In this document: positions 8,549-36,350 of the stretch, piece after piece | How the letters are laid out: every line of letters starts with the position of its first letter | How positions within the stretch are numbered: position 1 is the stretch's first letter | Assembly: GCA_003602635.1 (NCBI GenBank) | Contig: QQSJ01000014.1 | Location: 1 to 49,921, forward strand | Direction: 5' to 3' | DNA length: 49,921 nucleotides | Source of the DNA: Candidatus Poseidoniales archaeon | GTDB lineage: Archaea > Thermoplasmatota > Poseidoniia > Poseidoniales > Poseidoniaceae | Position numbers and translations under genes: made by a program | Notes under the pieces: model-generated | The model's input: only the letters and a program-made list of their open reading frames with translations | The model's database searches: none | What the model was told of the DNA's origin: nothing

Positions 8549-8588
8549 CGGGGAAGGCTCTTGACGGTCCTTCTCCGCCTTGGAGCAC

Positions 8589-17386: not shown

Positions 17387-17441
17387 AGGACGGCCCTTCT
17401 GGGCGTCATCTTCATGGGAGAGCCGCGTCACCCCCGGACCG

Positions 17442-18542: not shown

Positions 18543-18568
18543 CGGCCCCATCTGTTCGGGTCACGTCC

Positions 18569-18578
18569 CCGCATTTTT
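18569..18578 (+). terminator. possible archaeal oligo-T terminator
   Basis: A TTTTT run within gcatttttcac, about 30 nt after the 17442..18542 stop, in the only sizeable (about 100 nt) gap before fabI. Weak. Confidence 0.25.
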
Positions 18579-18643
18579 CACTCCCTGAGAGGGGGAATGG
18601 TCAAAGGCCGGTGTGCCCGGCTACACCGATGGAGGGTGTGCGT

Positions 18644-19444: not shown

Positions 19445-22400
19445 ATGACGATCACCACAGCAGACGGAAAGGAGGTCGGCGGGACCGACCAAGGCCCCTT
19501 CGAACCCATCGCCATCATCGGATGCTCAGCACTGATGCCCGACGCCGCCGACGCATCCGCTTTCTGGCAGAACATCATCGACTCGCGCGTCAGCATCCGC
19601 GATCTCCCCGAAGGCCGCTGGCCAGGGCCTATCGAGCAGTTTTGGGCCGAGGGCGCTCCGGGGCAAGTCGAAGAGAACCGCACGTACGCCAAGATCGGTG
19701 CCTTCGTGGAGGGGTTCGAATTCAACTGGCGTCGATGGCGGCAACCTCCTGGTACGCTGCCTCAAATCGACCCTTGCCAACTCTGGGCCGTTGAAGTCGC
19801 CGCGTCCGCTCTGGAGCATGCCGGTTACGGCGACGACGGACGGGAGCTTGACCGAAGCCGCGTTGGCGTGGTGTTTGCCAATGCGCTTGGCGGCGAGAAC
19901 CGCAACGAATCCAACCAGCGCGTCTGGGCAGAACGCAACCGCGCATTGGCCGTTGAAGCCGGTTTGCCGGAGGCCTCCAGCCAAGCCTTCGTCGATTCGA
20001 TGATCGAAGGCGCTCCAAAGGTGACCGAAGACACGATGCCCGGTGAATTGGCCAACGTGGTGTCCGGTCGTGTGGCCAACTTGCTCGATCTGCAGGGGCC
20101 CAACCACGCGATGGACGCCGCCTGCGCTTCTTCGCTGGCCGCCTTGCTTGACGCGTGCCGCTTGCTGCACGCACGGCAGGTTGACGCGATGATTTGCGGC
20201 GCTTCGGACCGCACCATGGATCCTGCGACCTACGCCAAATTCAGCGCGATTGGAGCCCTTTCGCCAAGCCATTCCACGCCGTTCGACGCACGTGCCAACG
20301 GCTTCGTCATGGGCGAGGGAGCCGGTGCACTGGTGCTCAAGCGCCTCAGCGACGCCGTGCGTGACGGCGACGAAGTGTTCGCCGTCATCCGCGGCATTGG
20401 TGGTTCCTCGGACGGCCGAGGAAAAGGCATCACGGCACCGTCACAACGCGGTCAAATTCAAGCCATTGCGCGGGCCTACAACCAAGCGGGCTATGCCGCT
20501 TCATCCGTCGAATTGGTCGAGGCCCACGGGACGTCGACCAAGGTCGGCGACGCCACGGAATTGTCCACCCTCGGTACCCTTTGGACGGGACTTGAAGCAG
20601 GTGACAACGTCGCCGTTGGGTCCATCAAGAGCCAGATCGGCCACCTCAAGGCCGCGGCTGGCATGGCCGGGTTGCTCAAAGTCACCATGGCCTTGCACCA
20701 TGCCACCATCCCGCCAAGCGCAGGATTTGAGACGCCAAACCCGACCGTGGATTGGTCGGACAACCCCTTCTTCGTCCCAACCGAGCCGATGGCTTGGGCT
20801 CAGCCGGACGGCCATCCTCGCCGTGCTGGTGTCAGCGCATTCGGGTTCGGTGGAACCAACTTCCACGTGGCCCTCGAAGCCTACGACCCAGAACTTCACG
20901 CGGCCATGGGGGACACGTGGGCTTCCCGTTGGGACGCCTACGTCGGAGGGTCGGCGGCACCTGCTGCAGCCTCCATCCTCGATGCTTCCGCTTCGCCTTC
21001 TCTTGATCACGCCTCGCTCAAAGCGGTCGAAGGCGGGGTCTTGCTTCTGTCTGGCGACAGCGTCGAAGCCGTGTCCGAGCTGCTTGCAGGGCGCTCCGTT
21101 GATGGTCCGACCTTCGACGAGGACCCACGAGGCCACCGTTTGTCGGCGGTCTTCTCTGAGTGGTCTTCCTCGTTCGACTCGGGTGCAGCGGTCCGTCTCG
21201 CCGTGGTGGCGACCACTTGGGCCGAGTTCGAGAAGCGGAAGGGATTGGCCGCTTCATCGCTCTCCGATCCCTCCCGCTGGGGCTTCCTTGCAGCGCAAGG
21301 CATCATGATCACCGACAAGCCTGCGATGCCTCCGCAAGCCAAAGTCGCGCACATGTATCCCGGGCAGGGCAGCCAATACGTTGGCATGACCCACGACCTC
21401 TGGAAGCGCTTCTCCGCGGTCCAGGACGTGTGGCGTCAAGCCGATGAAACGATGGTCGAGGTGCTCGACGGCGAGTCCCTCTCCTCGTTCGTGCTTCGAA
21501 GCAACCTCTCCAAAGACGAGGCCAAAGAAGCCGAAGAGAAGCTGAAGCGCACCGAATACACCCAACCCGCGATGCTCACGGCGGATTTGGCCATCGAGCG
21601 CGCCCTCAACGATCACGGTCTCAAGCCAGACATGGTCGCCGGTCATTCCCTTGGCGAATACGCGGCCCTGATGTCCGCCGGCATCATGGACATGGACAGC
21701 GCCCTTCGTGCCGCTGCCGCGCGTGGTACCGAGATGGGTTCGGTGGAAATTGACGACCAAGGCCTGATGGCTTCGGTCAGCGCCCCACTCGCTGACGTCC
21801 AACGCATCCTCGATGCGACCGACGGTTACGTGATTGCAGCCAACAAAAACTCACCAAAGATGACGGTCATCGCCGGTGAAACTGCACCCGTCAAGGCCGC
21901 CATGTCCGCCTTTGAGGCGGAAAGCATGCCTTGCACCGTCCTCCAAACGTCCCACGCCTTCCATTCGAAGATCGTCGCTCCTGCCAACGCTCCGCTGCGT
22001 GCCTTCCTCGAGGAATTGGACCTCCAATGGCCTTCGATTCCCATCACCGCCAACGTCGACGGGGCCTTCTACGCCATGGAAGGAGAGAACGCTCAGGCCG
22101 CGGTGCTGGAGAAACTCGCACCGCAGATGGCTTCCTCGGTGGAATGGACCGCCCAAATCGAAACCATGGCGGCTGCAGGCGCAGGCGCCTTCGTCGAAGT
22201 CGGGCCAAAGCGCGCCTTGACCGTCTTTGCAACGCAGATCCTCGAGGGTCAACCGCATTTGGCGGTGATGACGAACCATCCGAAGCAAGGGGGCGTCGCC
22301 AGCTTCCTCTCGGCTTTGGGGATGCTCGCCCTCGCTGGACGGGTGCCCTCCCTTCCCGGAGGGACAAGTCCTGCGTTGACGGAAGCCTTCCGTGCTGGAC

Positions 22401-25400
22401 CTGTTGAGGCGTGGAGCACGGCCCCGCTTCAGCCCACTCGCTCCTCCAAGGAGCACGAAGACCTGCGAACCCGTTCGCGGCCCCTCCCGTCCACCGGTGC
22501 CGCTCCCGCAGCGGCCCATGCCGTGGCCGCTCCTGTGACTGTGGCTGCACCTGCTGATCCGGCCGAAGCCATCGCCGCGTACGTCGGTGACCGGCTGGCT
22601 GCCGTCTGCGGTTATCCGGCTCGGTTCTGCCGTGGAGCCGTCGACCTTCGTCTTGGCCTCGGTTTGGATGATGCCAAGGTGAACGCCGTCGTGCAACGCT
22701 TGCGCAGCGAAACATCGCTCGATGCCGAAGTGGACATCGCGGCTGCACGGACGCCCGCAGAACTGGTTCGGGCCGTTCGCGCACCCCCCTCTGGCTGGCG
22801 TCCTGCCGCCCCAGCCACGCGCCGCGTCGCACCCCAGGCCTCTGCCGGAGCTCCGGTGCACGACCCCATGTCGGACCGCCGTTCGAATCCGTACGTGATC
22901 ACGGGTGTGTCCCTCGGCTTGCCCGGCGGAGAACGTGTGTTCGACGAGGACGTCTTTGAGCGTCTGATTCGGGGGGAAACCTGCATCGAAGAGGTCTCAG
23001 ACGCGTACAAGCAAGCGCTCCTCGACCGGAACATCGTCCGGCTCGTCAAAGGGCGCGACGGTTCGGTTGACATGTCAGCGGCCGAAACCTTCGGAGACAT
23101 CCCTCAGTTGGCGGGCGTCGCCCACGCCTTCGACCTCGCGGAAGAGTTCGGTGTCGATCCCAAGGCCGTTCTGGCATGGGACATCACCACACAACTCGCC
23201 GTGGCTTCAGGCTTGCTCGCGTTGCGCGATGCAGCCATCCCACTCACTCCAGAAGAGCAAGTCGGCAAGGGCGGACTCCGCTTGATTCGCGGATGGCAGG
23301 TCCCTCAGCATCAGCGTGAGCGAACCGGTGTGGTCTTCGCTTCATGCTTCCCAGGCACCACCGCTTCCTTTGAGCACGCCATCAACAATGGAGCGGACGC
23401 AGAGGGTCGGTTCGACCGTCGCTTCCTGTTCCAAGTTCTCAACATGGGTCACGCTCAATTCGCCCAACACACCGGCATCCGTGGCCCCAACTCGACCATC
23501 AACGTCGCATGCGCTTCTTCCACGGCCGCTTTCAGCATCGCAGAGGATTGGCTGGCCAACGACCGTGCAGACCGCGTGGTGATCATCTCGTCCGACAACG
23601 TGACCAGCCCAGAACTGTGGTCCTGGATCGGTGCAGGCTTCGCGGCTTCCGGGGCAGCGTCGTCCAGCAATGTCGTCGAAGAGGCGGCTTTGCCGTTTGA
23701 TCGCCGCCGCAACGGTCTGATCCTCGGAATGGGGGCCGCAGCCTTCGTCGTTGAGCGAAACGCCGAGGCGGCCGATCGTGGCGTCCAACCCTACGCTGAA
23801 CTCTTGGGAACGCGCATGGCCAACTCCGCTTTCCATGGGACCCGTCTCGACGTTGACCACGTGGCCCAAACCGTGGACGGCTTTGTCGGTCAGATGGAGG
23901 ACACATGGGGCTTGGACCGTCATGCCATGGCGCCCAACACCGTGTTCTTCTCACACGAAACCTACACGCCCGCACGCGGTGGTTCAGCCCAATCGGAGGT
24001 CAAAGCCCTTCGGACGACGTTTGGAGAAAGCACGGACAAGATCCTCATCGCGAACACGAAGGGGTTCACGGGCCACCCAATGGGCGTCGGCATCGAAGAC
24101 GCGAGCATGATTCACGGCCTTCACCATCGCCGCTTCCCCCCTATCGCCAACCACAAGGAGGTGGACCCAGAGTTGGGCAACCTCAACCTCAGCAAAGGCG
24201 GCGCCATCGAGGGCATCGAATACGGCATCCGATTTGGGGCCGGTTTCGGTTCACAAATCGCCCTTTCTTTGGTTCGACGTTGGCCGGTTGAAGGCGAGCG
24301 TGTGAACGGTCGAGCGGTCCTGGCATGGAACCGACGGCTTGCAGGAACCAACGACGTGGTGCTTCGCGTGCTCGACAACAAGCTCGTGGCCTACGTGGAC
24401 GGCGAGAACAACCTCCACGGCGGCGTCCAAGGCGATGCTTGGGGTCCAAGCGAGCCCTTCGAAGGCCTCGAAGAAGAGCCCGGAGAGGCACCGTCGCCTC
24501 CCCCAACGCCGGCACCTGCTGCGCCTGCTGCACCCGTGGCCAAGGCGCCCACCGTGGCGCCCGCAAGCGACGATGAGGTCACTGCAGCGATGATCGAAGT
24601 GGTCGTTGAGCACACCGGTTATCCTGCTGAATTCATCGAGATGGATCAGGACCTCGAAGGTGAACTGGGCATTGACACCGTCAAGCAAGCGGAAATCATG
24701 GCTTCCCTGCGCGATCGTTTCTCGCTCCCTGTTGACGAGGATTTCGTGCTCTCCGACCATCCAACCCTCAACCACATGCTGGCGTACCTCACGCGCATGC
24801 AAGGCGGTGGCCCTGCGCCATCGCAGGAAAGACCCGTCGTGGCGCCTGCTCCTTCGGTCCAAGAGCCCGTTGAGCACGCCGATGCGCCTGCGCCTGCAGC
24901 GCCCACCGAAGCACCGGCCCCGGCCCCAATGGCCGAACCCGGAGATTTGGTGGATACCGTGGTTAGCGTCGTGGTCGAACACACCGGTTATCCTGCCGAC
25001 TTCATCGAACTGGACCAAGATCTGGAAGGAGAGCTGGGCATTGACACCGTCAAACAGGCCGAGATCATGGCGGACATCCGCGCTCGTTTCTCCCTGCCCA
25101 TCGACGAGGATTTCCTCCTCTCGGACCACCCTACCCTGAACCACATGGTGGCGTACATCCAACGGATGACCGGCGGAGGAGATGCACCGGTGGCTGCACC
25201 GACGCAAGCACCCGCTGCGGCAAGCCCAGCGCCGAGCGCAGCCCCCGCGCCTGAGGCCAAACCTGCCCCTGCTGCGCCTCCTGTCACGGAGGACGACGGA
25301 ACCATCGCTGCGCGTTTGGTCGAAGTGGTCGTCAAGCACACGGGCTATCCTGAGGATTTCATCGAACTCGATCAGGACCTTGAGGGCGAACTTGGGATTG

Positions 25401-28252
25401 ACACCGTCAAGCAAGCGGAAATCATGGCTGATGTGCGGGCCATCTTTGACCTGCCCGTGGACGAGGATTTCCTGCTCTCGGATCACCCCACGCTCAACCA
25501 TTTCGTGGGCTACGTCGCCAAATTCTCCTCAGGCGGAAGCGCCGCCGCCGCGCCACCGACCCCTCAGGCATCGGCCGGCGAAGCACCCAGCACGCCCGCG
25601 CCCACTTCTTCGGCCATCTCCGAAGGTTGCCGCCGCTGGCAGGTGGAGATCGAGCCTTGCGAAGGCGATGCATCGCCACTGAGCCTCAACGGCCGGATGT
25701 TGGTCACGGAGGACGATTGGGGGCTTTCTGCCGCCGTCGCAGAACGGCTGACCGCTCAAGGCTTCGACGTGGTTCACATCGGCCTCGAACCCGGAGCAAA
25801 GTCACACCGCGTTCAGGAAGAGGGTGATCGTTTGGTGCACCGCGTGGACCCGGGCTCCTCTGAGCAGATGGACGCCTTTGTGGCGTCCCTCGGAGAGGCA
25901 CCGTTGGCTGGCCTGATTCACCTTGCTCCACTGCGCTTGGCCAGCATGGCCTGGTCCGAAGAGTCTGGACCCAGTCAGCAAGTGATCATCGCAGGACAGG
26001 CATGGTTTGGTCTCCTCAAGGCCCTCGACCACCGCTTGGGCGAGCTTGATGCTGGCGTCGTGGCTTCGGTCAGCGCCATGGACGGACGCCACGGAAACCG
26101 CGGCGATCGCTTCAACGCGCTGCAAGCCGCGGCTGCAGGGGTGACAAAATCCTACGCGCACGAACGTCCGTCGCTGCGTTGCCGCGCATACGACCTTCAC
26201 CCGGACATGCTCTTGGAGGCTGAATCCACGGCCGCCCGGTTGGTGGACGACCTCCTTGGTGTCGGCGGTGACGTCGAAATCGGTCTGGACCGTGCCGGCG
26301 AGCGTTGGACCTTGGTCTGCTTCGCTGAAGACTTGGTCGACGAACAGAAACCCCTGGTGGAGACCGATGTTTGGCTGGTTTCCGGCGGTGGCTCTGGCGT
26401 GACTGCAGCGGCCGTCATCGGGGTTGCAGAAGCCTCCAAGGACGCAGGAGCCGCGTTCCATCTTCTCGGACGGACGCCCCTCATGGAAGTCACCGAAGGT
26501 TGGCTCGAATACGACGAAGCGTCGTTGGAAGCCGAGAAGATGGCCCTCAGGGAGCGGATGATGGAAGCCTCCTCGTCTGGAAAAGTCACCATGGTTGAGT
26601 GGAACCGTGCATGGGACCGCATGATGCGCTCTCGTGACGTCCAGCAAACCATCGCCAGCATTCAGGCCACTGGAAACTTGGCTCAGTATCATGCGGTGGA
26701 CGTGACGAACACCAAGGCCTTGACCAAGATTGGAGCCAACCTTGGCCACGCCATCACCGGCGTGGTGCACGGTGCAGGTCTCGAGGAAAGCAAACTTGTG
26801 GCCGACAAAACCCACGAGGCCTTCGATCGCGTTGTGCGCGTCAAGGTCGACGGCTGGACGGCGCTCATGAGCGCCGTGCAAGCGTCGGGTGCTCCGCATC
26901 CTGCCTTTGCAGCCTGCTTTACGTCGGTCGCCGGACGCTTTGGCAACGGCGGACAAACCGATTACGCAGCAGCAAATTCGGTCTTGGACGCTGAAATGTC
27001 CCGTCTGACGGCCAGCGGCGTCTGCCGTGCCGTGGCCATCGGATGGACCGGTTGGCGGGACGTGGGCATGGCGACACGCGGTTCGATCGAAGCGGTGTTC
27101 GAAGCCGCAGGCATCGAGACCCTCCCGGTCGACGTCGGCGTGGATTTGTTTGTCGGCGAAGCCTTGTCGGGTGGGAAGCGGCGCGTGCTTGGATGCGGCA
27201 GCCTTGGTGCCATGGACACCTATGCGGCCTTCCGTGAGGCTCCGCTGAAACTGCCTCCGGGCATGGCCGGACTGATCGCTGACCCTCAGCGCTTCCCCTT
27301 CATCGACAAGGTGGTGGCCTTTGAGGAGAACGAACGCATGGCCACACAGACCACGCTTTCTACCGCGCTTCACCCCTTCTTGGTGGACCACGCCATCGAC
27401 GGCGTGCCGTACCATCCTGGTGTGATGGCGCTGGAGATGTTTGCTCAGAGCGCCTTGTTGCTCAAACCAGAGACCGCCTTGGCTGGATTCAAGGACGTCA
27501 CGTTTGGCCTTCCGGTCAAGATCATGCGGGATTCGATGACCGTCAGGGTCGAGTCGTCCGTTTCTTCCTCAGACGATGGCCAGCATGAGGTTCATTGCCG
27601 GTTGGTTTCCGACCTGATGTCTTCGAGCGGTGAAGTGTTTGGTGAGCGAGAACACCACAGCGCTGTGGTGCGTTTGGTGGACCGCGCAGAGGATCTGAGC
27701 GCCTTCTTCGCTGGAGAACTTGGCGCCATGCCCGACACTGGCCTGGCCCCTGCCCCTGGTGATCTCATGCATCATCCGTCGTTCATCTACCTCCGCTACT
27801 TCCACGGGCCTCGCTTCCAAAGCCACGGTGGCGTGCTTCGTGGTGTTCAGCAGGGCGAGCATCTCGGCGTGGACGGGTTGGCGTTGATGCGCCATCAGTT
27901 GCCTGCGAAGGACCAGTTCGCCATCGAATCCGACGGCGATGCTGTGCTGCTGGAGGCCCTCCCCATGCTCATCGAAGCAGGCTTCCAGAACGCCGGTTTG
28001 GTCGCCATGGAATCCGAGGGCTTGAGCAGCCTCCCCGTGGGCATCGAGTGGTCCACCATGCTTCGTGTTCCGGACGAGGGCGAATCGCTCCGCATGCGTT
28101 CGCTGTGCACCGGGAAGGAAGAGGGTGGCATCACCGTCCACGACGTGGTCATCTTCGGCGAGGAAGACGATCCAGTGCTGGCCCTTCGCGGTCTGCGCCT
28201 CAAGGGCATGGCTCCGGTCCCCGAGGACTTGGCCGTCTCCATTGAGCGGTGA
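19445..28252 (+). CDS. PUFA-synthase/PKS-like type I megasynthase (KS-AT-carrier-like-KS-ACPx3-KR-DH), 2935 aa
   Basis: Uninterrupted 8.8-kb ORF starting 9 nt after the fabI stop. Domain motifs are listed in the sub-features below. The carrier repeats resemble PfaA ACPs (VVEHTGYP.(E/D)FIE.DQDLEGELGID.VK). Confidence 0.95.
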   Translation: MTITTADGKEVGGTDQGPFEPIAIIGCSALMPDAADASAFWQNIIDSRVSIRDLPEGRWPGPIEQFWAEGAPGQVEENRTYAKIGAFVEGFEFNWRRWRQPPGTLPQIDPCQLWAVEVAASALEHAGYGDDGRELDRSRVGVVFANALGGENRNESNQRVWAERNRALAVEAGLPEASSQAFVDSMIEGAPKVTEDTMPGELANVVSGRVANLLDLQGPNHAMDAACASSLAALLDACRLLHARQVDAMICGASDRTMDPATYAKFSAIGALSPSHSTPFDARANGFVMGEGAGALVLKRLSDAVRDGDEVFAVIRGIGGSSDGRGKGITAPSQRGQIQAIARAYNQAGYAASSVELVEAHGTSTKVGDATELSTLGTLWTGLEAGDNVAVGSIKSQIGHLKAAAGMAGLLKVTMALHHATIPPSAGFETPNPTVDWSDNPFFVPTEPMAWAQPDGHPRRAGVSAFGFGGTNFHVALEAYDPELHAAMGDTWASRWDAYVGGSAAPAAASILDASASPSLDHASLKAVEGGVLLLSGDSVEAVSELLAGRSVDGPTFDEDPRGHRLSAVFSEWSSSFDSGAAVRLAVVATTWAEFEKRKGLAASSLSDPSRWGFLAAQGIMITDKPAMPPQAKVAHMYPGQGSQYVGMTHDLWKRFSAVQDVWRQADETMVEVLDGESLSSFVLRSNLSKDEAKEAEEKLKRTEYTQPAMLTADLAIERALNDHGLKPDMVAGHSLGEYAALMSAGIMDMDSALRAAAARGTEMGSVEIDDQGLMASVSAPLADVQRILDATDGYVIAANKNSPKMTVIAGETAPVKAAMSAFEAESMPCTVLQTSHAFHSKIVAPANAPLRAFLEELDLQWPSIPITANVDGAFYAMEGENAQAAVLEKLAPQMASSVEWTAQIETMAAAGAGAFVEVGPKRALTVFATQILEGQPHLAVMTNHPKQGGVASFLSALGMLALAGRVPSLPGGTSPALTEAFRAGPVEAWSTAPLQPTRSSKEHEDLRTRSRPLPSTGAAPAAAHAVAAPVTVAAPADPAEAIAAYVGDRLAAVCGYPARFCRGAVDLRLGLGLDDAKVNAVVQRLRSETSLDAEVDIAAARTPAELVRAVRAPPSGWRPAAPATRRVAPQASAGAPVHDPMSDRRSNPYVITGVSLGLPGGERVFDEDVFERLIRGETCIEEVSDAYKQALLDRNIVRLVKGRDGSVDMSAAETFGDIPQLAGVAHAFDLAEEFGVDPKAVLAWDITTQLAVASGLLALRDAAIPLTPEEQVGKGGLRLIRGWQVPQHQRERTGVVFASCFPGTTASFEHAINNGADAEGRFDRRFLFQVLNMGHAQFAQHTGIRGPNSTINVACASSTAAFSIAEDWLANDRADRVVIISSDNVTSPELWSWIGAGFAASGAASSSNVVEEAALPFDRRRNGLILGMGAAAFVVERNAEAADRGVQPYAELLGTRMANSAFHGTRLDVDHVAQTVDGFVGQMEDTWGLDRHAMAPNTVFFSHETYTPARGGSAQSEVKALRTTFGESTDKILIANTKGFTGHPMGVGIEDASMIHGLHHRRFPPIANHKEVDPELGNLNLSKGGAIEGIEYGIRFGAGFGSQIALSLVRRWPVEGERVNGRAVLAWNRRLAGTNDVVLRVLDNKLVAYVDGENNLHGGVQGDAWGPSEPFEGLEEEPGEAPSPPPTPAPAAPAAPVAKAPTVAPASDDEVTAAMIEVVVEHTGYPAEFIEMDQDLEGELGIDTVKQAEIMASLRDRFSLPVDEDFVLSDHPTLNHMLAYLTRMQGGGPAPSQERPVVAPAPSVQEPVEHADAPAPAAPTEAPAPAPMAEPGDLVDTVVSVVVEHTGYPADFIELDQDLEGELGIDTVKQAEIMADIRARFSLPIDEDFLLSDHPTLNHMVAYIQRMTGGGDAPVAAPTQAPAAASPAPSAAPAPEAKPAPAAPPVTEDDGTIAARLVEVVVKHTGYPEDFIELDQDLEGELGIDTVKQAEIMADVRAIFDLPVDEDFLLSDHPTLNHFVGYVAKFSSGGSAAAAPPTPQASAGEAPSTPAPTSSAISEGCRRWQVEIEPCEGDASPLSLNGRMLVTEDDWGLSAAVAERLTAQGFDVVHIGLEPGAKSHRVQEEGDRLVHRVDPGSSEQMDAFVASLGEAPLAGLIHLAPLRLASMAWSEESGPSQQVIIAGQAWFGLLKALDHRLGELDAGVVASVSAMDGRHGNRGDRFNALQAAAAGVTKSYAHERPSLRCRAYDLHPDMLLEAESTAARLVDDLLGVGGDVEIGLDRAGERWTLVCFAEDLVDEQKPLVETDVWLVSGGGSGVTAAAVIGVAEASKDAGAAFHLLGRTPLMEVTEGWLEYDEASLEAEKMALRERMMEASSSGKVTMVEWNRAWDRMMRSRDVQQTIASIQATGNLAQYHAVDVTNTKALTKIGANLGHAITGVVHGAGLEESKLVADKTHEAFDRVVRVKVDGWTALMSAVQASGAPHPAFAACFTSVAGRFGNGGQTDYAAANSVLDAEMSRLTASGVCRAVAIGWTGWRDVGMATRGSIEAVFEAAGIETLPVDVGVDLFVGEALSGGKRRVLGCGSLGAMDTYAAFREAPLKLPPGMAGLIADPQRFPFIDKVVAFEENERMATQTTLSTALHPFLVDHAIDGVPYHPGVMALEMFAQSALLLKPETALAGFKDVTFGLPVKIMRDSMTVRVESSVSSSDDGQHEVHCRLVSDLMSSSGEVFGEREHHSAVVRLVDRAEDLSAFFAGELGAMPDTGLAPAPGDLMHHPSFIYLRYFHGPRFQSHGGVLRGVQQGEHLGVDGLALMRHQLPAKDQFAIESDGDAVLLEALPMLIEAGFQNAGLVAMESEGLSSLPVGIEWSTMLRVPDEGESLRMRSLCTGKEEGGITVHDVVIFGEEDDPVLALRGLRLKGMAPVPEDLAVSIER
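19496..20885 (+). other. megasynthase domain: ketosynthase 1 (approximate bounds)
   Basis: DAACASSLAAL (Cys codon 20123..20125), EAHGTSTKVGD, KSQIGHLKAAAG, FGFGGTNFHVALE. The full Cys-His-His triad is present. Confidence 0.9.
21340..22340 (+). other. megasynthase domain: acyltransferase (malonyl-CoA:ACP transacylase-like; approximate bounds)
   Basis: YPGQGSQYVGM, GHSLGEYAAL (Ser codon 21647..21649), SHAFHS. Confidence 0.9.
22560..22780 (+). other. megasynthase domain: degenerate carrier-protein-like segment (Asp at the Ser position)
   Basis: IAAYVGDRLAAVCGYPARF...LRLGLGLDDAKVNAVVQRL has ACP helix-I/II layout. It reads GLDD (Asp codon 22670..22672) where ACPs have GxDS. Confidence 0.5.
22885..24285 (+). 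other. megasynthase domain: ketosynthase 2 (approximate bounds)
   Basis: ITGVSLGLPGG start, NVACASSTAAF (Cys codon 23510..23512), FSHETYTP (first His), NTKGFTGHPMG (second His). The triad appears retained, so this is not a classical Cys-less chain-length factor. Confidence 0.8.
24570..25520 (+). repeat. three tandem in-frame carrier-domain (ACP) repeats, about 360-nt period
   Basis: Three copies of ...VV(V/K)(E/H)HTGYP.(E/D)FIE(M/L)DQDLEGELGIDTVKQAEIMA..R..F.LP(V/I)DEDF.LSDHPTLNH..., separated by Ala/Pro linkers. The cores are also similar at DNA level (roughly four in five positions by eye). The attachment-site codon is ACC (Thr) in all three: 24677..24679, 25046..25048, 25403..25405. Confidence 0.9.
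25625..27170 (+). other. megasynthase domain: ketoreductase (structural plus catalytic subdomains; approximate bounds)
   Basis: Rossmann motif VWLVSGGGSGVTAAA from 26369. TSVAGRFGNGGQTDYAAANSVLD with the catalytic Tyr codon at 26963..26965. Confidence 0.85.
27288..28249 (+). other. megasynthase domain: PKS-type (double-hotdog) dehydratase (approximate bounds)
   Basis: LHPFLVDHAIDGVPYHPGV fits HxxxGxxxxP (His codon 27389..27391). About 320 aa run to the C-terminus. Confidence 0.8.
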
Positions 28253-29034
28253 TGCAGATGCTCAGGGTTGAGCCGGTGTGGTCCGGCTTTGAAGCACCTC
28301 TCCACCAGGTGTCCCTCGCTGCACTCCCTGAGGTGCTTCCCGACGAAGATGCTCAACTGCCACCGTTGGTGGAAGCAAGCGAATGGTCGACCTTCAAGAC
28401 CGACAAACGCAGGAAAGAGCACCTTGGCGGGCGCCTCTTGCTGGGCGCTTCCATCGAAGCATGGTGGAATGAACGCCGCTTCGTCGGGCGAACCGACGAA
28501 CTCGATGTCGTGCGAGACGAGCACCGTGCGCCGTACCTTCGCTGGCGGCCCGGCGTATGGCGCCAAGCCCCGCTTCCTGGCGTGTCAATCGGGCACAGCG
28601 AAGGACGCGCCGTGGTGGGTCTGGTCGAGGAGGGATGGAGCATTGGCGTGGACGCGGAACCGGTCGATCGCCGCATCGCAGAAGCCGCATGGGACATGTT
28701 TGCGTCAGCAGAAGAACGGTCCACGTTTGCGGGCAATCACCCTGCTGCGTTGCGGGCTTGGGTCACCAAAGAGGCGATTCAGAAAGCGTTGGGCTTGGGC
28801 ATGCACCTCAACCCTCGTCACATTGTGACGGAAGCCTCCCGTTTTGTTCACCACGGCTCAGTGGTTCATGTCAGCCACACCGAAGTGGACGGCATGTTGG
28901 TGTGCGTTGCCCTTGCGCCAGCCCGTGCACCACCGTCAACACCCGAGGATGACGTGCTTGAAGCCACACGGGCGGCGATGGAGGCCGACCCTGAATGGGG
29001 CGTGGGATGCAAGACCACACGACAGTTGGCGTGA
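28252..29034 (+). CDS. 4'-phosphopantetheinyl transferase (Sfp type)
   Basis: IGVDAEP and WVTKEAIQKALG (W/FxxKEAxxKA) motifs. The ATG at 28252 shares its A with the megasynthase TGA (TGATG), suggesting translational coupling. Alternative in-frame starts at 28249 (GTG) and 28258. Confidence 0.85.
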   Translation: MQMLRVEPVWSGFEAPLHQVSLAALPEVLPDEDAQLPPLVEASEWSTFKTDKRRKEHLGGRLLLGASIEAWWNERRFVGRTDELDVVRDEHRAPYLRWRPGVWRQAPLPGVSIGHSEGRAVVGLVEEGWSIGVDAEPVDRRIAEAAWDMFASAEERSTFAGNHPAALRAWVTKEAIQKALGLGMHLNPRHIVTEASRFVHHGSVVHVSHTEVDGMLVCVALAPARAPPSTPEDDVLEATRAAMEADPEWGVGCKTTRQLA

Positions 29035-30456
29035 TCATCCAACGTTCCGAATTTCCGGCGTTTGGTCGGCGAAGAGGAATTCAAGCAACGCCGCCCACAT
29101 CACGAACTCGATGCTCTCCTCGAGTTTGTCTTGGCCTCCGACGACGTCGACCATGTTCTCCAAGGTGTCCGATGGCGAGTGGTAGGCGTCGTAATCGTCG
29201 TCGTATGCGCCGAGGTGGAAGATGGTCTGAGCACCGAGGTCGCGGAAGGTGACGTGATCCGAGCGGCCAAAGGTGTCCTCATGGACGTCCATGACCAAGT
29301 CAGCGTGGTCTTCCCAATGCTGGTCGCAACCGGCCCCATAGGTGCCGTCGATGCGGAGGTCCATGGGTGCCTTGAGCACGTTTCGATGCACATGGTCGAG
29401 GATGCTGGTGATGGCGACGTCCTGTTCATCGGGGTCGATGTCGGGGCCAGACCATGCGTGGTAGGGGTACGGTTCGCCGGTGGGCTTGTACGCGGGCCAT
29501 GAAATGCCCATCATGTCCATGTTGATGTAGAACCGGAGCTCCTTGTCTTGCGGAAGGCAATAGCCACAATCGTTGTTGGCGAATGCATTCGAACCGCGCA
29601 ACCCTTCTTCTTCAGACGACCAAAGCGCAAGGAAGGTGTCGCATTCCACCTCAAGCTCAGCGAGGACCCTCGCATAGAGCATCATGGACACGGTTCCAGC
29701 GGTGTTGTCGTAGGCTCCTTCGTGGGTGCCGCCGCCGGGGGGGCCGCCTGGAGGAGCGATGTCCATGTGCCCTCCCATGCCTTGCACGCAGGAGTCATCA
29801 CGGCCGTCTTTCCATGCAATGACGTTCAACGACTCGGGCTGGCTTGGGTTGAGATGGTCCGTCACGCGAAGCATGTAGGTGCGGTAACCGAGGCTTTCGA
29901 AGTGGCCTTGGAAGTAGGCTGCTCCACGCTCGTAGGCCGGGTTGCCGGCGCCCATCCATCGGTCGTTGTAGCCGCCACACTCTGCAGAGGGGCGACCGTC
30001 GACCACGGGGTCACAGGTGATGTAATCCATCTTCTCGAACCATTCTTGCCCGTTCACGATGGGCGTGCCGTTCTCAACAGGCAACTCAAACACCGTCTTG
30101 CGACCGTTTTGGTCGTAAATCGTCAATTCGACGGCCTCTGTGTAAGGCGTGGTCAGGAGGCGAATCGCCTGCCGGTCGCCGTCGACAGGTACTGAGCTGT
30201 CAAGGTCCATGGATCCGTTGACGAAGAGAAGGACGTCATCGGCCGGGGCGGAGAGGCGGAGCCCTTCACCAACCAACAGCAGGTCGTGCCATTCGCCAAG
30301 ACGCACGGCCGCTTCGGTCGCCGGCATGCCGTCGATGGTGAGCGTCGCGTCGGCGTCGATGGTCTCTTCTTCAGGGGTTCCACCGATGCATCCTGACAAG
30401 GGTGCAAGCAGCATCAGCCCCATCAGCAAGAGCGCGGAATACATCTTTGCCGCCAT
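29035..30456 (-). CDS. M28-family zinc aminopeptidase, lipobox-type signal peptide
   Basis: N-terminus MYSALLLMGLMLLAPLSGC. Metal-ligand layout GGHMD..., GAYDNTAGTVSM, WSSEEEGLRGS, NMDMMG, YHSPSDT. Confidence 0.85.
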   Translation of the reverse strand: MAAKMYSALLLMGLMLLAPLSGCIGGTPEEETIDADATLTIDGMPATEAAVRLGEWHDLLLVGEGLRLSAPADDVLLFVNGSMDLDSSVPVDGDRQAIRLLTTPYTEAVELTIYDQNGRKTVFELPVENGTPIVNGQEWFEKMDYITCDPVVDGRPSAECGGYNDRWMGAGNPAYERGAAYFQGHFESLGYRTYMLRVTDHLNPSQPESLNVIAWKDGRDDSCVQGMGGHMDIAPPGGPPGGGTHEGAYDNTAGTVSMMLYARVLAELEVECDTFLALWSSEEEGLRGSNAFANNDCGYCLPQDKELRFYINMDMMGISWPAYKPTGEPYPYHAWSGPDIDPDEQDVAITSILDHVHRNVLKAPMDLRIDGTYGAGCDQHWEDHADLVMDVHEDTFGRSDHVTFRDLGAQTIFHLGAYDDDYDAYHSPSDTLENMVDVVGGQDKLEESIEFVMWAALLEFLFADQTPEIRNVG

Positions 30457-30673: not shown

Positions 30674-33600
30674 TCAGGGACTGGGGGGTTGCTGCGGCAA
30701 TCCCGGGATCCCTTGAGGCGGTGGCGGCGAGGCTGACATGGGTGGTGCAGTACGGCGCCGTTCCACCAAAGCCATGGCGAGTGCTTCCCGTTCTTCCTGC
30801 CATCGTGCGCTCCGGCGTCGACCTTGGACAAGCATTCCCAACAACAGTACGATGAGCAGGACTTGGCCGAGGGCCACCTGTCCACGTTCATCATCGACCC
30901 ACCATGAGACGTCCGTCCATTCGGTTTGTGTTGGTGCGTCAACCTCCAGCAACCGGCTGTCGATGACCTCCACGCTGAGCGACACCTCGTCCATCGCGGC
31001 GTTGCTGCCGGGCTCGGTGACGGTGACGGTCAGTTGAATGGGCACGGCACGGGCCACTTCGGTCTCAAACCACAGGGAAGCATTCTCTGCTTCAGGATCG
31101 ATGACCACCGTTTGCGAACGCGACCCGCCAAAGAGGTCAGAGCCTCCGTCCCACGTGACTCGAGCGGTCACTGGGACGCTCATCGTGTGGGTCACGGTGC
31201 ATGTGAAGGCAAATTTCGGTCCCACGGCAAGGTCCACCTCGGGATTGACCAGGGCACAATCGAGCGTCGCCTCAGCCACGTTTCGAGAGGCATCTTGAGG
31301 CCAATGATCCGGAGATTCTGCCCCAATCTCGTTGTTGTCTCCGTAGCCGTCCCCGTCGCTGTCTACCTGCTGGGTGGCCAGGTCGGGGAAATCGTCCTCC
31401 ACGTCGGCCCATCCGTCGCCGTCACGGTCAGCACAGCCACGAGCGCTCGAATGAGACGACGTTCCTGCCTCGTTTGGGCAATCGTCGGACACCGTGGATC
31501 CGCTTTGATCGGCGTATCCGTCTCCGTCGCTGTCGGACCACACCCCACCGTCGACCGGCCACGGGTCGTTCAGATCGCTCTGTCCGTCTCCGTCGCTGTC
31601 TGGGCATCCAAACCGGTCCAACGTTGAGGTTCCGGCCGCACCGGGGCAGGCATCGGGTTGCTCACCTGAAGCAAGGTCGCCGTACCCGTCGTTGTCCGAG
31701 TCCCCGATTTGGGTGGGGTCGTTGGGGAACTCATCGCCTTCGTCGGAAGCTCCGTCCCCATCGGCATCAGGGCAACCAAAGCGGTCCAGAGACGAGTTTC
31801 CGGCCACCGTCGGGCACGCGTCGGCTTCCGTGCCGCTGGCGTTGTCACCGTATCCGTCACCGTCTTGGTCTGTGAATTGCGAGGAATCGTTCGGGAAGGG
31901 GTCGGCGCCATCACCGAGGGTGACTTCGCCGATGCCGTCCACGCCGGTTTGAGCCTCAGCCACGCCGTCTCCGTCGGCGTCTGGGCAACCCGTGACCGGG
32001 CTTGTGGACGTCCCAGCCAACGCAGGGCATCCATCGCTCGGATCGTCGATGCCATCACCGTCCGAGTCGGCGGTACGGGATGGGTCATTCGGGAAGGCAT
32101 CGCCGAGGTCCGACACGCCGTCGCTATCGCTGTCAGGGCAGCCGAATCGATCGACGGTGGAGGTGCCCGATTCGCCTGGGCAGGCATCAGGTTCCGGCCC
32201 CGTGGCGTTGTCACCGTATCCGTCACCGTCTTGATCGGCCCACTGCGAGGGTTGGTTGGGGAGCACGTCGATGCTGTCGTCCCAACCGTCTCCGTCGGTG
32301 TCAGGGCAACCGTAGCGGTTCGCTGCGGTGGAATTCCCTTGCACGTAGGGGCAAGCATCTGGCATGGTCCCGCCGGCGTTGTCGAAGTATCCGTCACCGT
32401 CTGTATCGACCCATTGTGTTCCGTCGTTCGGAGCTTCGTCTTCACCGTCGGACCATCCGTCGCCGTCGCCATCAGGGCAGCCCAGCGTACCGTTTTGCCA
32501 CGAGTTGCCGGCTTGCGTGGGGCAATCGTCAGCGAGCGTGCCGGTGGCGTTGTCGCCGTATCCGTCTCCGTCCTGGTCGGCCCATTGGGTCCCGTCCATC
32601 ACGAAGGCATCGGCTCCGTCGGCCACCGTCCACACGCCGTCAGGATCCGACCAACCGTCGCTGTCTCGGTCAGGGCATCCTTGTCGATCGAGGGAGGAGG
32701 TTCCCGCAGCCAGGGGGCACGCGTCATCGATGGTGTCGTCAAACCCGTCGCCATCGGTGTCCGCCCAACGCGATGCATCGCTTGGGAAGGCATCGGCGCC
32801 GTCGGTGACGGACCAACCGCTGTCCTCGTCAGAATAGCCGTCGCCGTCCCCGTCGGGGCAACCGTTGCGGTCCACGGAGGAGCTGCCGGTCACGCCTGGG
32901 CAGGCATCGCCCATGGTTCCAGAGGGATTGTCGCCGTATCCGTCACCGTCAGCGTCCACCCACTGCGTTGCATCCGTGGGCCATGCGTCGGCGCCTTGGC
33001 CAGTGGTCCAACTTGAATCTGGGTCAGAGAACCCGTCGCCGTCTGCGTCGGGGCAACCCAATCGGTCGTTGGCTGACGAACCGTACGTGGTGGGGCACCC
33101 GTCAGGTTGTGCGCCAGAGGCGTTGTCACCGTATCCGTCAAGGTCGCTGTCCACCCACTGTGATGCTTCGAAGGGGAAGGCATCGTCCACATCGGCCCAT
33201 CCATCGCCGTCGCCGTCAGGGCAACCGAGGCGGTTGGCTTCGGTTGACGTCCCGGGAACGGTTGGGCACGCATCGGGTTGGGTCCCTGTGGCGTTGTCGC
33301 CGTATCCGTCGCCGTCCTGGTCGGCCCATTGCGTGGTGTCGTTTGGGAACGCATCCGCTCCGTTGGCGACCGTGAAGCCGGTGTCAGGGTCAGAGTAGGT
33401 GTCGCTGTCAGTGTCTGGACAACCCAATCGGTCCGAGGTTGAGTCGCCAAAGAGCGTTGGGCAACCGTCTGGATCGGTGGCAGGAGCGGGGTTGTCGCCG
33501 TATCCGTCGCCGTCCGTATCCCGCCATTGGGTGTCGTCGCCAAGGAAGGCGTCGGCCCCCTCGCTGATGCTCCAAGTGCTGCCGTTGGAGGAGGAAGCAC

Positions 33601-36259: not shown

Positions 36260-36350
36260 GTGTTCTGCTTTTGCTGAACCCTCATCAAGCATTGGTCGAA
36301 CGACGCAGCAGGAACACGAGCGTTGAAAGGCCATTCGCCGACCGCAAACC

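What the first reader, a model, noticed from the sequence alone, without database searches (positions are those of the whole stretch)
24570..25520. All three tandem carrier domains have Thr instead of the invariant phosphopantetheine-accepting Ser
Seen in sequence: each PfaA-like carrier repeat reads LEGELGID-T-VKQAEIM. The codon is ACC at 24677..24679, 25046..25048 and 25403..25405, exactly where ACP/PCP domains have the D-S motif (PfaA ACPs read LGIDSIKRVEIL). The fourth, degenerate carrier-like segment (22560..22780) has Asp at this position (GLGLDD), so the megasynthase contains no canonical DS(L/I) attachment site. A dedicated Sfp-type PPTase is nevertheless translationally coupled downstream. 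Established knowledge: the attachment Ser is essentially invariant in carrier proteins, and to my recollection Ser-to-Thr variants of E. coli ACP are poorly modified or not modified. Inference: there are four possible explanations. The partner PPTase may phosphopantetheinylate Thr. Another residue may be used, for example the conserved Ser in the LSDHPT motif found in all three repeats. The domains may act without a prosthetic group. Or the system may be inactive, which seems unlikely given three conserved copies under apparent purifying selection.
Basis: partly seen in the sequence, partly recalled or inferred. Interest (0 to 1): 0.75.

Follow-up and report, generated by a model that had tools for sequence, protein, structure and literature searches.

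The report
Carrier domains using threonine, not serine
The three acyl-carrier domains of this marine archaeal lipid/polyketide synthase carry threonine where all textbook carrier proteins carry the cofactor-bearing serine. This turns out to be the conserved hallmark of a very large, uncharacterised synthase family, which points to a natural threonine-linked phosphopantetheine.

Summary
All three carriers read LEGELGIDTVKQAEIM, with ACC at 24677, 25046 and 25403. The Thr aligns with the attachment Ser of solved ACPs and is the first residue of helix II in a confident model.

It is neither an error nor a local oddity.
- A DNA scan neutral between Ser and Thr codons found 304 Thr against 3 Ser in 120 species genomes from more than 10 phyla. 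All four Thr codons are used.
- The trait tracks one architecture, KS-AT-KS2-ACPn-KR-DH plus a PPTase. This is the "Type R secondary lipid synthase" of Shulse & Allen 2011, whose product is unknown.
- PfaA-like relatives have Ser.
- Only Ser or Thr ever occupies the column in true carriers.
- Two separate Poseidoniales lineages carry Ser instead of Thr.
- One Heimdallarchaeal protein carries Ser, Thr and Ser carriers fused to its own PPTase.
- All catalytic motifs are intact, and the PPTase has canonical Sfp-type residues.

Best explanation: Thr is the phosphopantetheine acceptor of a dedicated PPTase (inferred, about 0.78). I found no paper describing this. E. coli ACP S36T is reported as unmodifiable. 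Mass spectrometry is needed.

The parts
18539..19435 (+). FabI-type enoyl-ACP reductase gene directly upstream of the synthase. It would act in trans as the ER.
   Evidence: Pfam adh_short_C2 at 2.9e-70. NCBIfam FabI models score up to 227 bits, below their equivalog cut-offs. An ER gene sits upstream of the synthase in most Poseidoniales loci.
19445..28252 (+). 2935-aa iterative type I synthase with the order KS1-AT-pseudoACP-KS2-ACP(Thr)x3-KR-DH. This is the Type R secondary lipid synthase architecture.
   Evidence: ORF list, Pfam domains, architecture comparison. Active-site motifs are present: DAACASS, EAHGTST, IGHLKAA, GHSLGE, AFHS, YAAAN and HPFLVDHAI..GVPYHPG.
19502..20896 (+). KS1, a PfaA-like ketosynthase (aa 20-484).
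   Evidence: Pfam ketoacyl-synt, Ketoacyl-synt_C and KAsynt_C_assoc. TIGR02813 PfaA matches aa 21-941.
21353..22312 (+). Malonyl-type acyltransferase (aa 637-956).
   Evidence: Pfam Acyl_transf_1 at 4.1e-34. GHSLGE at aa 733 and AFHS at aa 838.
22559..22780 (+). Degenerate carrier-like segment (pseudo-ACP). Asp occupies the attachment column (GLGLDD, GAT at 22670).
   Evidence: Translation. The same GLGLDDAKV segment was recovered in Poseidoniales loci L151 and L242 by the carrier HMM. phmmer finds it only in the marine-archaeal architecture.
22982..24439 (+). KS2, a second ketosynthase. The 2011 literature labels it "CLF", but it keeps Cys-His-His-Lys.
   Evidence: The VACASS Cys, SHETYT His, FTGHPMG His and the Lys are conserved in 104-105 of 105 loci.
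24584..24811 (+). Carrier domain 1. The attachment-column Thr1745 is codon ACC at 24677..24679.
24956..25177 (+). Carrier domain 2. The attachment-column Thr1868 is codon ACC at 25046..25048.
25313..25531 (+). Carrier domain 3. The attachment-column Thr1987 is codon ACC at 25403..25405.
26627..27061 (+). Ketoreductase catalytic core (aa 2395-2539).
   Evidence: Pfam KR at 5.6e-24. YAAAN at aa 2507.
27296..28249 (+). PKS-type dehydratase (aa 2618-2935).
   Evidence: Pfam PKS_DH_N. The HxxxGxxxxP motif lies at aa 2643-2659.
28249..29034 (+). Dedicated Sfp-type 4'-phosphopantetheinyl transferase. Its start overlaps the synthase stop codon.
   Evidence: Pfam ACPS, 36.8 bits against a cut-off of 25. 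Invariant D135, E137, W171, K174, E175 and K179. A family profile matches Sfp 1qr0/4mrt at about 2e-9 and aligns these residues with Sfp D107, E109, E151 and K155. The junction reads GTGATG. 75 of 76 marine loci with room downstream carry this gene.

Best explanation
What the locus is. The window comes from a Marine Group II archaeon (Ca. Poseidoniales). It encodes a self-contained, ACP-dependent iterative type I synthase of the uncharacterised "Type R secondary lipid synthase" family. The genes are a FabI-type ER, then KS1-AT-pseudoACP-KS2-ACPx3-KR-DH, then a translationally coupled Sfp-type PPTase.

What the Thr does. In this family the phosphopantetheine acceptor at the N-terminus of carrier helix II is normally Thr, in the motif LG(I/V)DTVKQAE. 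The co-encoded PPTase transfers 4'-phosphopantetheine from CoA to the Thr hydroxyl using the ordinary Asp/Glu/Mg2+ machinery. The resulting holo-carriers then serve the KS, AT, KR, DH and ER exactly as Ser-linked ACPs do, and build a long acyl chain.

Shown here: the Thr column assignment, its family-wide conservation, the restriction of that column to Ser or Thr, the link to this architecture and PPTase, and the intact catalytic motifs.

Inferred: the actual transfer to Thr, and the product.

Speculative rationale: a secondary-alcohol linkage would insulate these carriers from housekeeping AcpS-type enzymes. That would explain why every cluster carries or is fused to its own PPTase, and it may also make the linkage more stable.
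For: 1. Position. The Thr aligns with the D-S Ser of solved ACPs. It is the first residue of helix II in a model with pLDDT 90.7 and an ACP fold.

2. Conservation.
- A Ser/Thr-neutral degenerate DNA scan of GTDB species genomes gave 304 Thr (ACC 150, ACG 123, ACT 17, ACA 14) against 3 Ser in 120 loci. The phyla include Acidobacteriota, Actinomycetota, Chloroflexota, Myxococcota, Elusimicrobiota, Gemmatimonadota, Rhodothermales, Heimdallarchaeota and Poseidoniales.
- The 3 Ser loci have a different architecture.

3. Hydroxyl-only column. An HMM scan of every carrier in 243 loci gave 577 Thr, 42 Ser, 2 Asp (both in the pseudo-ACP) and nothing else.

4. Ser and Thr interchange between orthologues.
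- Of 120 marine-archaeal loci, 101 are all-Thr and 19 are all-Ser.
- The Ser loci form two clades, each with 100% bootstrap support. They were never monophyletic together in 100 replicates and are interleaved with Thr lineages on a KS2 tree.
- Ca. Heimdallarchaeum aukensis has Ser, Thr and Ser carriers in one polypeptide that ends in a PPTase domain.

5. An unbiased HMMER scan of 1.84 billion representatives.
- The scan gave 5164 hits at E<=1e-3.
- Of the 145 best newly fetched hits, 86 are all-Thr and 56 all-Ser.
- Among those of at least 1800 aa, the Thr proteins mostly have the KS2-containing architecture and the Ser proteins mostly have the PfaA-like one.

6. PPTase linkage. The PPTase lies immediately downstream in 75 of 76 marine loci and is fused in at least 6 proteins. 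Its Sfp catalytic residues are canonical.

7. All KS1, KS2, AT, KR and DH active-site motifs are intact, and no other carrier exists in the locus.

8. The +1 residue covaries. Thr is followed by Val in 915 of 931 cases and Ser by Ile in 284 of 311. This is a methyl swap.
Against: - There is no chemical evidence. No mass spectrometry or expression data exist for any member.
- E. coli ACP S36T is reported as not modifiable with 4'-phosphopantetheine and as non-functional (PMC3340395). Thr is therefore not generally accepted by PPTases.
- The PPTase sequence shows no obvious active-site novelty.
- The Ser/Thr restriction could in principle reflect a helix N-cap requirement rather than a modification.
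- The covariations (the +1 residue, PPTase column 172) are partly confounded with phylogeny.
- My literature search covers only open-access text, so earlier documentation cannot be excluded.
Confidence: 0.78

Rival explanations
1. The carriers are never phosphopantetheinylated. Either they act as structural or docking domains, or the synthase is inactive, or it uses free CoA or an ACP supplied in trans. The Plasmodium mitochondrial ACP, which lost its Ser, is a precedent.
For: E. coli ACP S36T is not modified (PMC3340395). A Ppant-free divergent ACP exists in Plasmodium (abstract of PMC8547962, listed). The synthase already contains one clearly degenerate carrier, GLGLDD.
Against: - The column admits only Ser or Thr in 619 true carriers, whereas the real pseudo-ACP has drifted to Asp.
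- 2 to 6 tandem copies are maintained across more than 10 phyla.
- A PPTase is adjacent or fused almost everywhere.
- All catalytic motifs are intact.
- There is no other carrier in the locus.
- Most archaea lack any other ACP or PPTase (bioRxiv 10.1101/2024.07.05.601840).
Confidence: 0.08
2. Phosphopantetheine is attached, but to another hydroxyl residue. Candidates are the Ser of LSDHPT, or the conserved Thr of the TGYP or (Y/H)PTL motifs.
For: The Thr of TGYP is conserved in 283 of 289 carriers and the Thr of PTL in 280 of 289. The LSDHPT Ser is present in all three window repeats.
Against: - The LSDHPT Ser is Arg in 210 of 289 homologues and Ser in only 22.
- In the model, the TGYP Thr (T16) lies at the end of helix I and the PTL Thr (T66) just before helix IV. 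Neither is at the PPTase-facing N-terminus of helix II.
- From my own knowledge, not tested here: TGYP is also present in Ser-type PfaA ACPs, where the DS Ser is the proven site.
- Only the canonical column switches between Ser and Thr.
Confidence: 0.03
3. The Thr is modified, but differently from normal carriers. Either a different prosthetic group is used, or the Thr is a deliberately poor acceptor, so that only a small regulated fraction becomes holo.
For: Nothing direct. A secondary alcohol is a poorer nucleophile, and the number of tandem copies might compensate for low occupancy (inference).
Against: The only modifying enzyme encoded is an ordinary Sfp-type PPTase. No CitX/CitG-type genes lie near the synthase. 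Ser-bearing orthologues keep the same copy number and architecture.
Confidence: 0.06
4. The ACC codons are a sequencing or assembly error for AGC or TCN.
For: None.
Against: There are three independent codons in this window. There are also hundreds of independent assemblies carrying ACC, ACG, ACA and ACT. Four contigs with 96% identical KS2 domains are all Thr type.
Confidence: 0.005

Closest known systems
Type R secondary lipid synthase clusters (Shulse & Allen 2011, PMC3098273): Koribacter, Solibacter, Elusimicrobium, Roseiflexus
   Same: One pfaA homologue with the order KS-MAT-"CLF"-ACP(3-6)-KR, followed by a PPTase gene. An ACC gene is sometimes inserted, as in locus L001. The phyla match (Acidobacteria, Elusimicrobia, Chloroflexi). 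The PPTase has the P1b' hShxH motif, VSIGH here.
   Different: - The host is archaeal (Poseidoniales).
- A FabI-type ER gene and a pseudo-ACP are added.
- The "CLF" is a full Cys-His-His KS.
- The paper does not contain the words "threonine" or "serine".
- The named strains themselves were not examined here.
PfaA of bacterial PUFA synthases (pfaABCDE)
   Same: An N-terminal KS-AT, tandem ACPs with a related motif (LGIDSIKRVEI against LGIDTVKQAEI), KR-DH, and a dedicated PPTase. TIGR02813 is the best NCBIfam hit.
   Different: - The score of 865.6 is below the 1010.1 cut-off.
- An extra KS2 sits before the carriers.
- No pfaB, pfaC or pfaD genes are present.
- PfaA-like relatives have Ser at the attachment column; this family has Thr.
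Sfp-type (group II) phosphopantetheinyl transferases (Sfp, PfaE, AASDHPPT)
   Same: The size is similar (261 aa). The GxDxE and W-x-x-K-E-x-x-x-K motifs align with Sfp D107, E109, E151 and K155.
   Different: - It is too divergent for a single-sequence PDB hit.
- Its presumed acceptor is Thr.
- The window clade has a C-terminal extension, TPEDxLLEATRxAMxxxPxWGVGCKTxR.
- The position equivalent to Sfp Ser162 is His, Asn, Gly, Lys or Arg in Thr-type loci. It is Ser in both independent Ser-type archaeal lineages.
Iterative PKSs with a built-in or adjacent PPTase: Rhodococcus RerA/RerB (PMC11563203), and enediyne PKSE (from memory)
   Same: KS-AT-ACP(n)-KR-DH with a dedicated PPTase. The PPTase is fused in some Type R members.
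   Different: Those systems make polyenes and have no KS2. I did not examine their carrier sequences. The MGII locus adds an ER, which suggests a reduced chain.
E. coli AcpP S36T mutant
   Same: The same Ser-to-Thr substitution at the attachment site.
   Different: It is reported as not modified by 4'-phosphopantetheine and as non-functional in E. coli (PMC3340395). Here the Thr is the conserved native state and has its own PPTase.

Membership tests
Carrier protein / PP-binding domain (PF00550) | Match to the family profile above the curated cut-off | tested here: met
   95.4 bits against a cut-off of 20.8, with three stretches.
Carrier protein / PP-binding domain (PF00550) | ACP-type helical bundle with the attachment residue at the N-terminus of helix II | tested here: met
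   AF2 pLDDT 90.7, with T37 opening helix 37-50. Foldseek TM 0.80-0.84 to ACPs.
Carrier protein / PP-binding domain (PF00550) | Ser in the (D/H)S(L/I) motif as the phosphopantetheine acceptor | tested here: not met
   Thr in all three domains. It is also Thr in about 93% of the family's carriers.
Carrier protein / PP-binding domain (PF00550) | Covalent 4'-phosphopantetheine on the domain | not testable with these tools
   This needs mass spectrometry of the carrier co-expressed with the PPTase.
Type R secondary lipid synthase (Shulse & Allen 2011) | A single pfaA homologue with the order KS-MAT-CLF(KS2)-ACP(3-6)-KR | tested here: met
   KS1-AT-psACP-KS2-ACPx3-KR-DH. Definition taken from PMC3098273.
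Type R secondary lipid synthase (Shulse & Allen 2011) | A PPTase gene immediately downstream, of the P1b' (hShxH) type | tested here: met
   ORF 28249..29034. VSIGH motif. Motif definition from the paper.
Type R secondary lipid synthase (Shulse & Allen 2011) | KS phylogeny grouping with the named Type R strains (Koribacter, Solibacter, Elusimicrobium, Roseiflexus) | not tested
   The named genomes were not among the fetched loci. Only MAGs of the same phyla with the same architecture were seen.
PfaA, PUFA synthase subunit A (TIGR02813) | Score above the NCBIfam cut-off | tested here: not met
   865.6 bits, below 1010.1.
PfaA, PUFA synthase subunit A (TIGR02813) | Partner genes pfaB (AT), pfaC (KS-CLF-DH2) and pfaD (ER) in the cluster | tested here: not met
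   The neighbours are a FabI-type ER, a choice-of-anchor T protein, peptidases and a PPTase. No pfaB, pfaC or pfaD is present.
Sfp-type (group II) PPTase | ACPS superfamily profile match | tested here: met
   PF01648, 36.8 bits against a cut-off of 25. A family profile matches Sfp at about 2e-9.
Sfp-type (group II) PPTase | Mg2+/CoA catalytic residues (GxDxE; (W/F)xxKExxxK) | tested here: met
   D135, E137, W171, K174, E175 and K179 are invariant in 19 sequences. They align with the Sfp motifs.
Sfp-type (group II) PPTase | Transfers Ppant to the carrier's conserved Ser | not testable with these tools
   The acceptor column here is Thr. Activity has not been measured.

The most novel reading that the evidence does not exclude
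O-(4'-phosphopantetheinyl)-threonine is the native prosthetic linkage of a whole clade of carrier proteins: thousands of Type R synthases in more than 10 bacterial phyla, in Poseidoniales and in Heimdallarchaeota. It is installed by co-evolved, cluster-encoded Sfp-type PPTases and works as a carrier/PPTase pair insulated from housekeeping AcpS. A corollary is that abundant marine archaea and some Asgard archaea own a complete ACP-dependent fatty-acid/polyketide synthase. Archaea are generally said to lack ACP and ACP synthase.
Probability: 0.6. Interest if true: 0.8.

Novelty: new variant of a known kind. Interest (0 to 1): 0.75.

Why it matters
- The Ser acceptor of carrier proteins is treated as invariant in textbooks, in PROSITE/UniProt annotation rules and in genome-mining tools. 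Ser-to-Thr is even used as a "dead" control for E. coli ACP.
- A large natural family with Thr would add a new form of a universal post-translational modification.
- It would also define PPTases with relaxed or shifted acceptor specificity. Such enzymes could be useful as orthogonal labelling or activation pairs.
- It would flag thousands of synthases that current rules may score as lacking an active carrier.
- It puts a complete ACP-dependent synthase, with its own PPTase and ER, into Marine Group II and Heimdall archaea. That bears on the question of archaeal fatty-acid synthesis and the "lipid divide".

Tried and rejected
- Sequencing error. Rejected.
- LSDHPT Ser as an alternative site. 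Rejected: it is Arg in most homologues.
- Bias from the word-indexed protein search. Controlled in three ways: a codon-neutral DNA scan, an HMM rescan of all carriers in the loci and an index-free HMMER scan.
- The MGII PPTase C-terminal extension as a Thr-specificity element. Rejected: clade-2 Thr-type loci lack it as well.
- Gln178 of the PPTase (KEAxQK) as a determinant. Rejected: it is not conserved in bacterial or Heimdall Thr-type PPTases.
- Single-sequence PDB search with the PPTase gave nothing. A family profile was needed.
- The viral contig scan found no matches.
- Literature. Motif strings, "phosphopantetheinylated threonine" and variants, "Thr instead of Ser" with carrier protein, and "tandem ACP" with threonine returned nothing relevant. 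The Poseidoniales and archaeal-FAS papers I opened do not describe this synthase.
- A first neighbour-joining attempt timed out and was redone.
- PF27202 (Flk_N), listed on many hits, is only a faint overlap and is absent from the local Pfam copy.
Full report
OBSERVATION

ORF 19445..28252 (+) encodes a 2935-aa protein. Pfam finds KS (aa 20-484), AT (637-956), three PP-binding stretches, KR and a PKS-type DH. The next ORF, 28249..29034, is an ACPS-superfamily PPTase. Its GTG/ATG start overlaps the synthase stop codon in the sequence GTGATG.

Each carrier reads LEGELGIDTVKQAEIM. The three repeats are 68-74% identical at the protein level.

A fourth, degenerate carrier-like segment at 22559..22780 reads GLGLDD. 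No DS motif in a carrier context exists in the synthase or anywhere else in the 50-kb window.

COLUMN ASSIGNMENT

- phmmer against all PDB chains aligns the Thr with the D-S Ser of the PigH ACP doublet, the S. coelicolor FAS ACP and AcpM.
- An AlphaFold2 model of carrier 1, built on a 28-sequence alignment, has mean pLDDT 90.7 and helices at 2-16, 37-50 and 67-77. Thr37 is the first residue of helix II, which is the canonical acceptor position.
- Foldseek returns only ACPs, at TM 0.80-0.84.

NOT AN ERROR, AND NOT LOCAL

A first protein search with two carriers gave 386 hits. In the best 120 I counted 199 Thr against 4 Ser. That search relies on shared 5-mers, so I removed the bias in three ways.

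(a) A degenerate DNA pattern for LG[IV]D-WSN-[IVM]KQAE was used, where WSN matches Thr (ACN) and Ser (TCN, AGY) alike.
- It gave 304 Thr (ACC 150, ACG 123, ACT 17, ACA 14) and 3 Ser.
- The hosts include Acidobacteriota, Actinomycetota, Chloroflexota, Myxococcota, Elusimicrobiota, Gemmatimonadota, Rhodothermales, Heimdallarchaeota and Poseidoniales. They usually carry 2-6 tandem copies.

(b) An HMM built from these domains and run over every ORF of all 243 loci held gave 577 Thr, 42 Ser, 2 Asp and no other residue. Both Asp cases are the pseudo-ACP.

(c) An index-free HMMER scan of 1.84 billion cluster representatives with one carrier gave 5164 hits at E<=1e-3 and 2631 at E<=1e-10. Among the 145 newly fetched best proteins, 86 are all-Thr, 56 are all-Ser and 3 are mixed.

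WHAT THE THR GOES WITH

Domain mapping of those proteins and of the loci shows a clean split.
- Thr carriers sit in the architecture KS1-AT-KS2-ACPn-KR-DH, often followed by or fused to a PPTase.
- Ser carriers (motifs DSIKRVEI and DSIKKAQL) sit in the PfaA-like architecture KS-AT-ACPn-KR.
- The three Ser loci from the genome scan have yet another layout.

The Thr architecture is what Shulse & Allen (2011, PMC3098273) called the Type R secondary lipid synthase. [quoted passage not shown] A GC-rich locus, L001, shows exactly that ACC insertion. That paper does not contain the words "threonine" or "serine".

The "CLF" is in fact a full KS. Its Cys, both His and the Lys are present in 104-105 of 105 loci.

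The window protein is not a PfaA. TIGR02813 scores 865.6, below its cut-off of 1010.1. No pfaB, pfaC or pfaD genes are nearby.

HOST

- The locus is syntenic with a Ca. Poseidoniales MAG (L002). The shared genes are ER, synthase, PPTase, an M28 peptidase and an S8 peptidase, and that MAG locus also has CarS-like genes nearby.
- Relatives with 96% identical KS2 domains come from marine metagenomes.
- A closely related full-length protein is annotated "hypothetical protein [Euryarchaeota archaeon]".
- The window also encodes a Nop56/58-type protein.
- Marine loci consistently have a FabI-type ER gene upstream and the pseudo-ACP. The set KS/AT/ACP/KR/DH/ER is therefore complete for a fully reducing cycle.

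EVIDENCE THAT THE THR IS THE FUNCTIONAL ACCEPTOR

1. Only Ser or Thr ever occupies the column in true carriers. The one real pseudo-carrier drifted to Asp.

2. Third-codon positions are saturated, while the first two positions change only by A to T, that is Thr to Ser.

3. Ser and Thr interchange between orthologues.
- A marine-archaeon-specific scan (EGELG[IV]D-WSN-...) gave 101 all-Thr and 19 all-Ser loci, none mixed.
- On a KS2 neighbour-joining tree the Ser loci form two clades, each with 100/100 bootstrap support. They were never monophyletic together (0/100).
- The smallest clade holding both Ser groups also holds 10 Thr loci.
- At least two independent switches therefore occurred.

4. 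Ca. Heimdallarchaeum aukensis encodes one 2344-aa protein, AT-KS2-ACP-ACP-ACP-KR-DH-PPTase. Its carriers read DSIKAAE, DTVKQAE and DSIKIAE. One built-in PPTase thus faces both acceptor types.

5. The PPTase is immediately downstream in 75 of 76 marine loci that have room for it. It is fused to the synthase in at least six proteins.

6. All active-site motifs of KS1, KS2, AT, KR and DH are intact. A synthase like this needs a thiol arm.

8. The residue after the acceptor covaries. Thr-Val occurs in 915 of 931 cases and Ser-Ile in 284 of 311. The extra methyl of Thr is offset by one methyl fewer at +1, which suggests a sterically tight site. This is partly confounded with phylogeny. One marine Ser lineage changed both residues (DSI) and the other changed only the acceptor (DSV).

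THE PPTASE

- A single-sequence search finds no PDB relative.
- A 19-sequence alignment used as a profile matches Sfp (1qr0, 4mrt) at about 2e-9 and human AASDHPPT.
- The invariant D135, E137, W171, K174, E175 and K179 align with Sfp D107, E109, W147, K150, E151 and K155. The catalytic machinery is therefore ordinary.
- Comparing PPTases from Ser-type and Thr-type marine loci, one column stands out: HMM column 172, which is window His186 and Sfp Ser162.
- That column is Ser in all 9 PPTases from the two Ser lineages. Those two lineages are only 25% identical to each other.
- It is never Ser in 71 Thr-type PPTases, which have His 40, Asn 16, Gly 6, Lys 4 and Arg 3.
- With only two events this is a lead, not a result. 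Human AASDHPPT, a Ser modifier, has Gly there.
- The C-terminal extension of the window-clade PPTases does not track the Thr state.

WHAT IS KNOWN

- Recent work on PUFA-like synthases still confirms "the conserved Ser" in each ACP (PMC13291983).
- Archaea are described as nearly all lacking ACP and ACP synthase (bioRxiv 10.1101/2024.07.05.601840).
- Full-text searches for the motif, for phosphopantetheinylated threonine and for related phrasings found nothing.
- The library is open-access only, so absence of a report is not proven.
- From memory, not checked: UniProt's PTM vocabulary lists only the serine ester.

CONCLUSION

The best explanation is that Thr is the native phosphopantetheine acceptor in Type R synthases, served by their own Sfp-type PPTases (confidence about 0.78). 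The window shows the Poseidoniales version of this system.

Why Thr? A plausible but untested reason is insulation from housekeeping AcpS, or a more robust phosphodiester. This would fit the near-obligatory co-transfer of a PPTase with the synthase, including into archaea.

Rivals:
- Unmodified or inactive carriers: about 0.08.
- Another residue as the attachment site: about 0.03.
- A different or substoichiometric modification: about 0.06.
- Artefact: below 0.01.

The decisive test is mass spectrometry of a carrier co-expressed with the PPTase, with T-to-A and T-to-S controls. A cheaper first look is a re-search of marine metaproteomes for the Ppant-bearing tryptic peptide.

The product of the synthase remains unknown. 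With the trans ER, a saturated or partly reduced long acyl chain is the most likely guess.

Noticed in passing
window 22982..24439 (KS2, synthase aa about 1180-1665): The domain that the 2011 literature labels "CLF" in Type R synthases keeps the Cys-His-His-Lys active site in 104-105 of 105 loci. These synthases therefore have two competent ketosynthases, not a KS/CLF pair.
   Followed up: partly
window 22559..22780: A pseudo-ACP (GLGLDDAKV, with Asp at the acceptor column) lies between the AT and KS2. It is conserved in the marine archaeal loci and was not detected in bacterial Type R proteins. It may be a structural or docking remnant.
   Followed up: partly
window 28249..29034, C-terminal ~40 aa of the PPTase: A conserved C-terminal extension, TPEDxLLEATRxAMxxxPxWGVGCKTxR, with an invariant Gly and a conserved Cys. 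It is present only in the window's Poseidoniales clade. It is absent from the second Poseidoniales clade (both Thr and Ser types) and from bacterial and Heimdall PPTases. Its function is unknown.
   Followed up: partly
L017 504..7538 (Ca. Heimdallarchaeum aukensis CP084166.1); L052 151..5442; protein P0319: Asgard (Heimdall) archaea encode single-chain AT-KS2-ACPn-KR-DH-PPTase synthases. L017 mixes Ser, Thr and Ser carriers. P0319 is all-Ser and L052 is all-Thr. This is an ACP-dependent synthase with a built-in PPTase in Asgard archaea.
   Followed up: partly
window PPTase His186 (nt 28804..28806); PPTases of loci L163, L198, L229, L240 and L166, L167, L183, L190, L227: The PPTase position equivalent to Sfp Ser162 is Ser in both independent Ser-carrier lineages and never Ser in 71 Thr-carrier loci. 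The neighbouring Leu also becomes Ile. This is a candidate acceptor-specificity determinant, but it rests on only two evolutionary events.
   Followed up: partly
L001 13409..18991 (ERZ25039464 contig_9245): In a GC-rich, split-gene version of the cluster, an 1860-aa single-chain acyl-CoA carboxylase (BC-BCCP-CT) sits between the synthase genes and the PPTase. This echoes the ACC insertion reported for Koribacter.
   Followed up: no
window 18539..19435 and 16926..18542: A FabI-type enoyl reductase gene sits directly upstream of the synthase, and its start overlaps the stop of the preceding ORF. That preceding ORF matches NCBIfam "choice-of-anchor T family protein" (90.9 bits against a cut-off of 70). 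Its link to the synthase is unknown.
   Followed up: no
window 8039..8902 (-): A 287-aa ORF with a 4HBT hotdog-thioesterase domain lies about 10 kb upstream of a synthase that has no release domain. It is a possible but untested chain-release candidate.
   Followed up: no
window 9322..15162 (+) and 30674..36400 (-): Two very large ORFs (1946 and 1908 aa) flank the cluster. The second is an S8 subtilase with a PPC domain, and an M28 peptidase gene lies next to it (29035..30456). The same peptidase genes flank the cluster in the Poseidoniales MAG L002.
   Followed up: no
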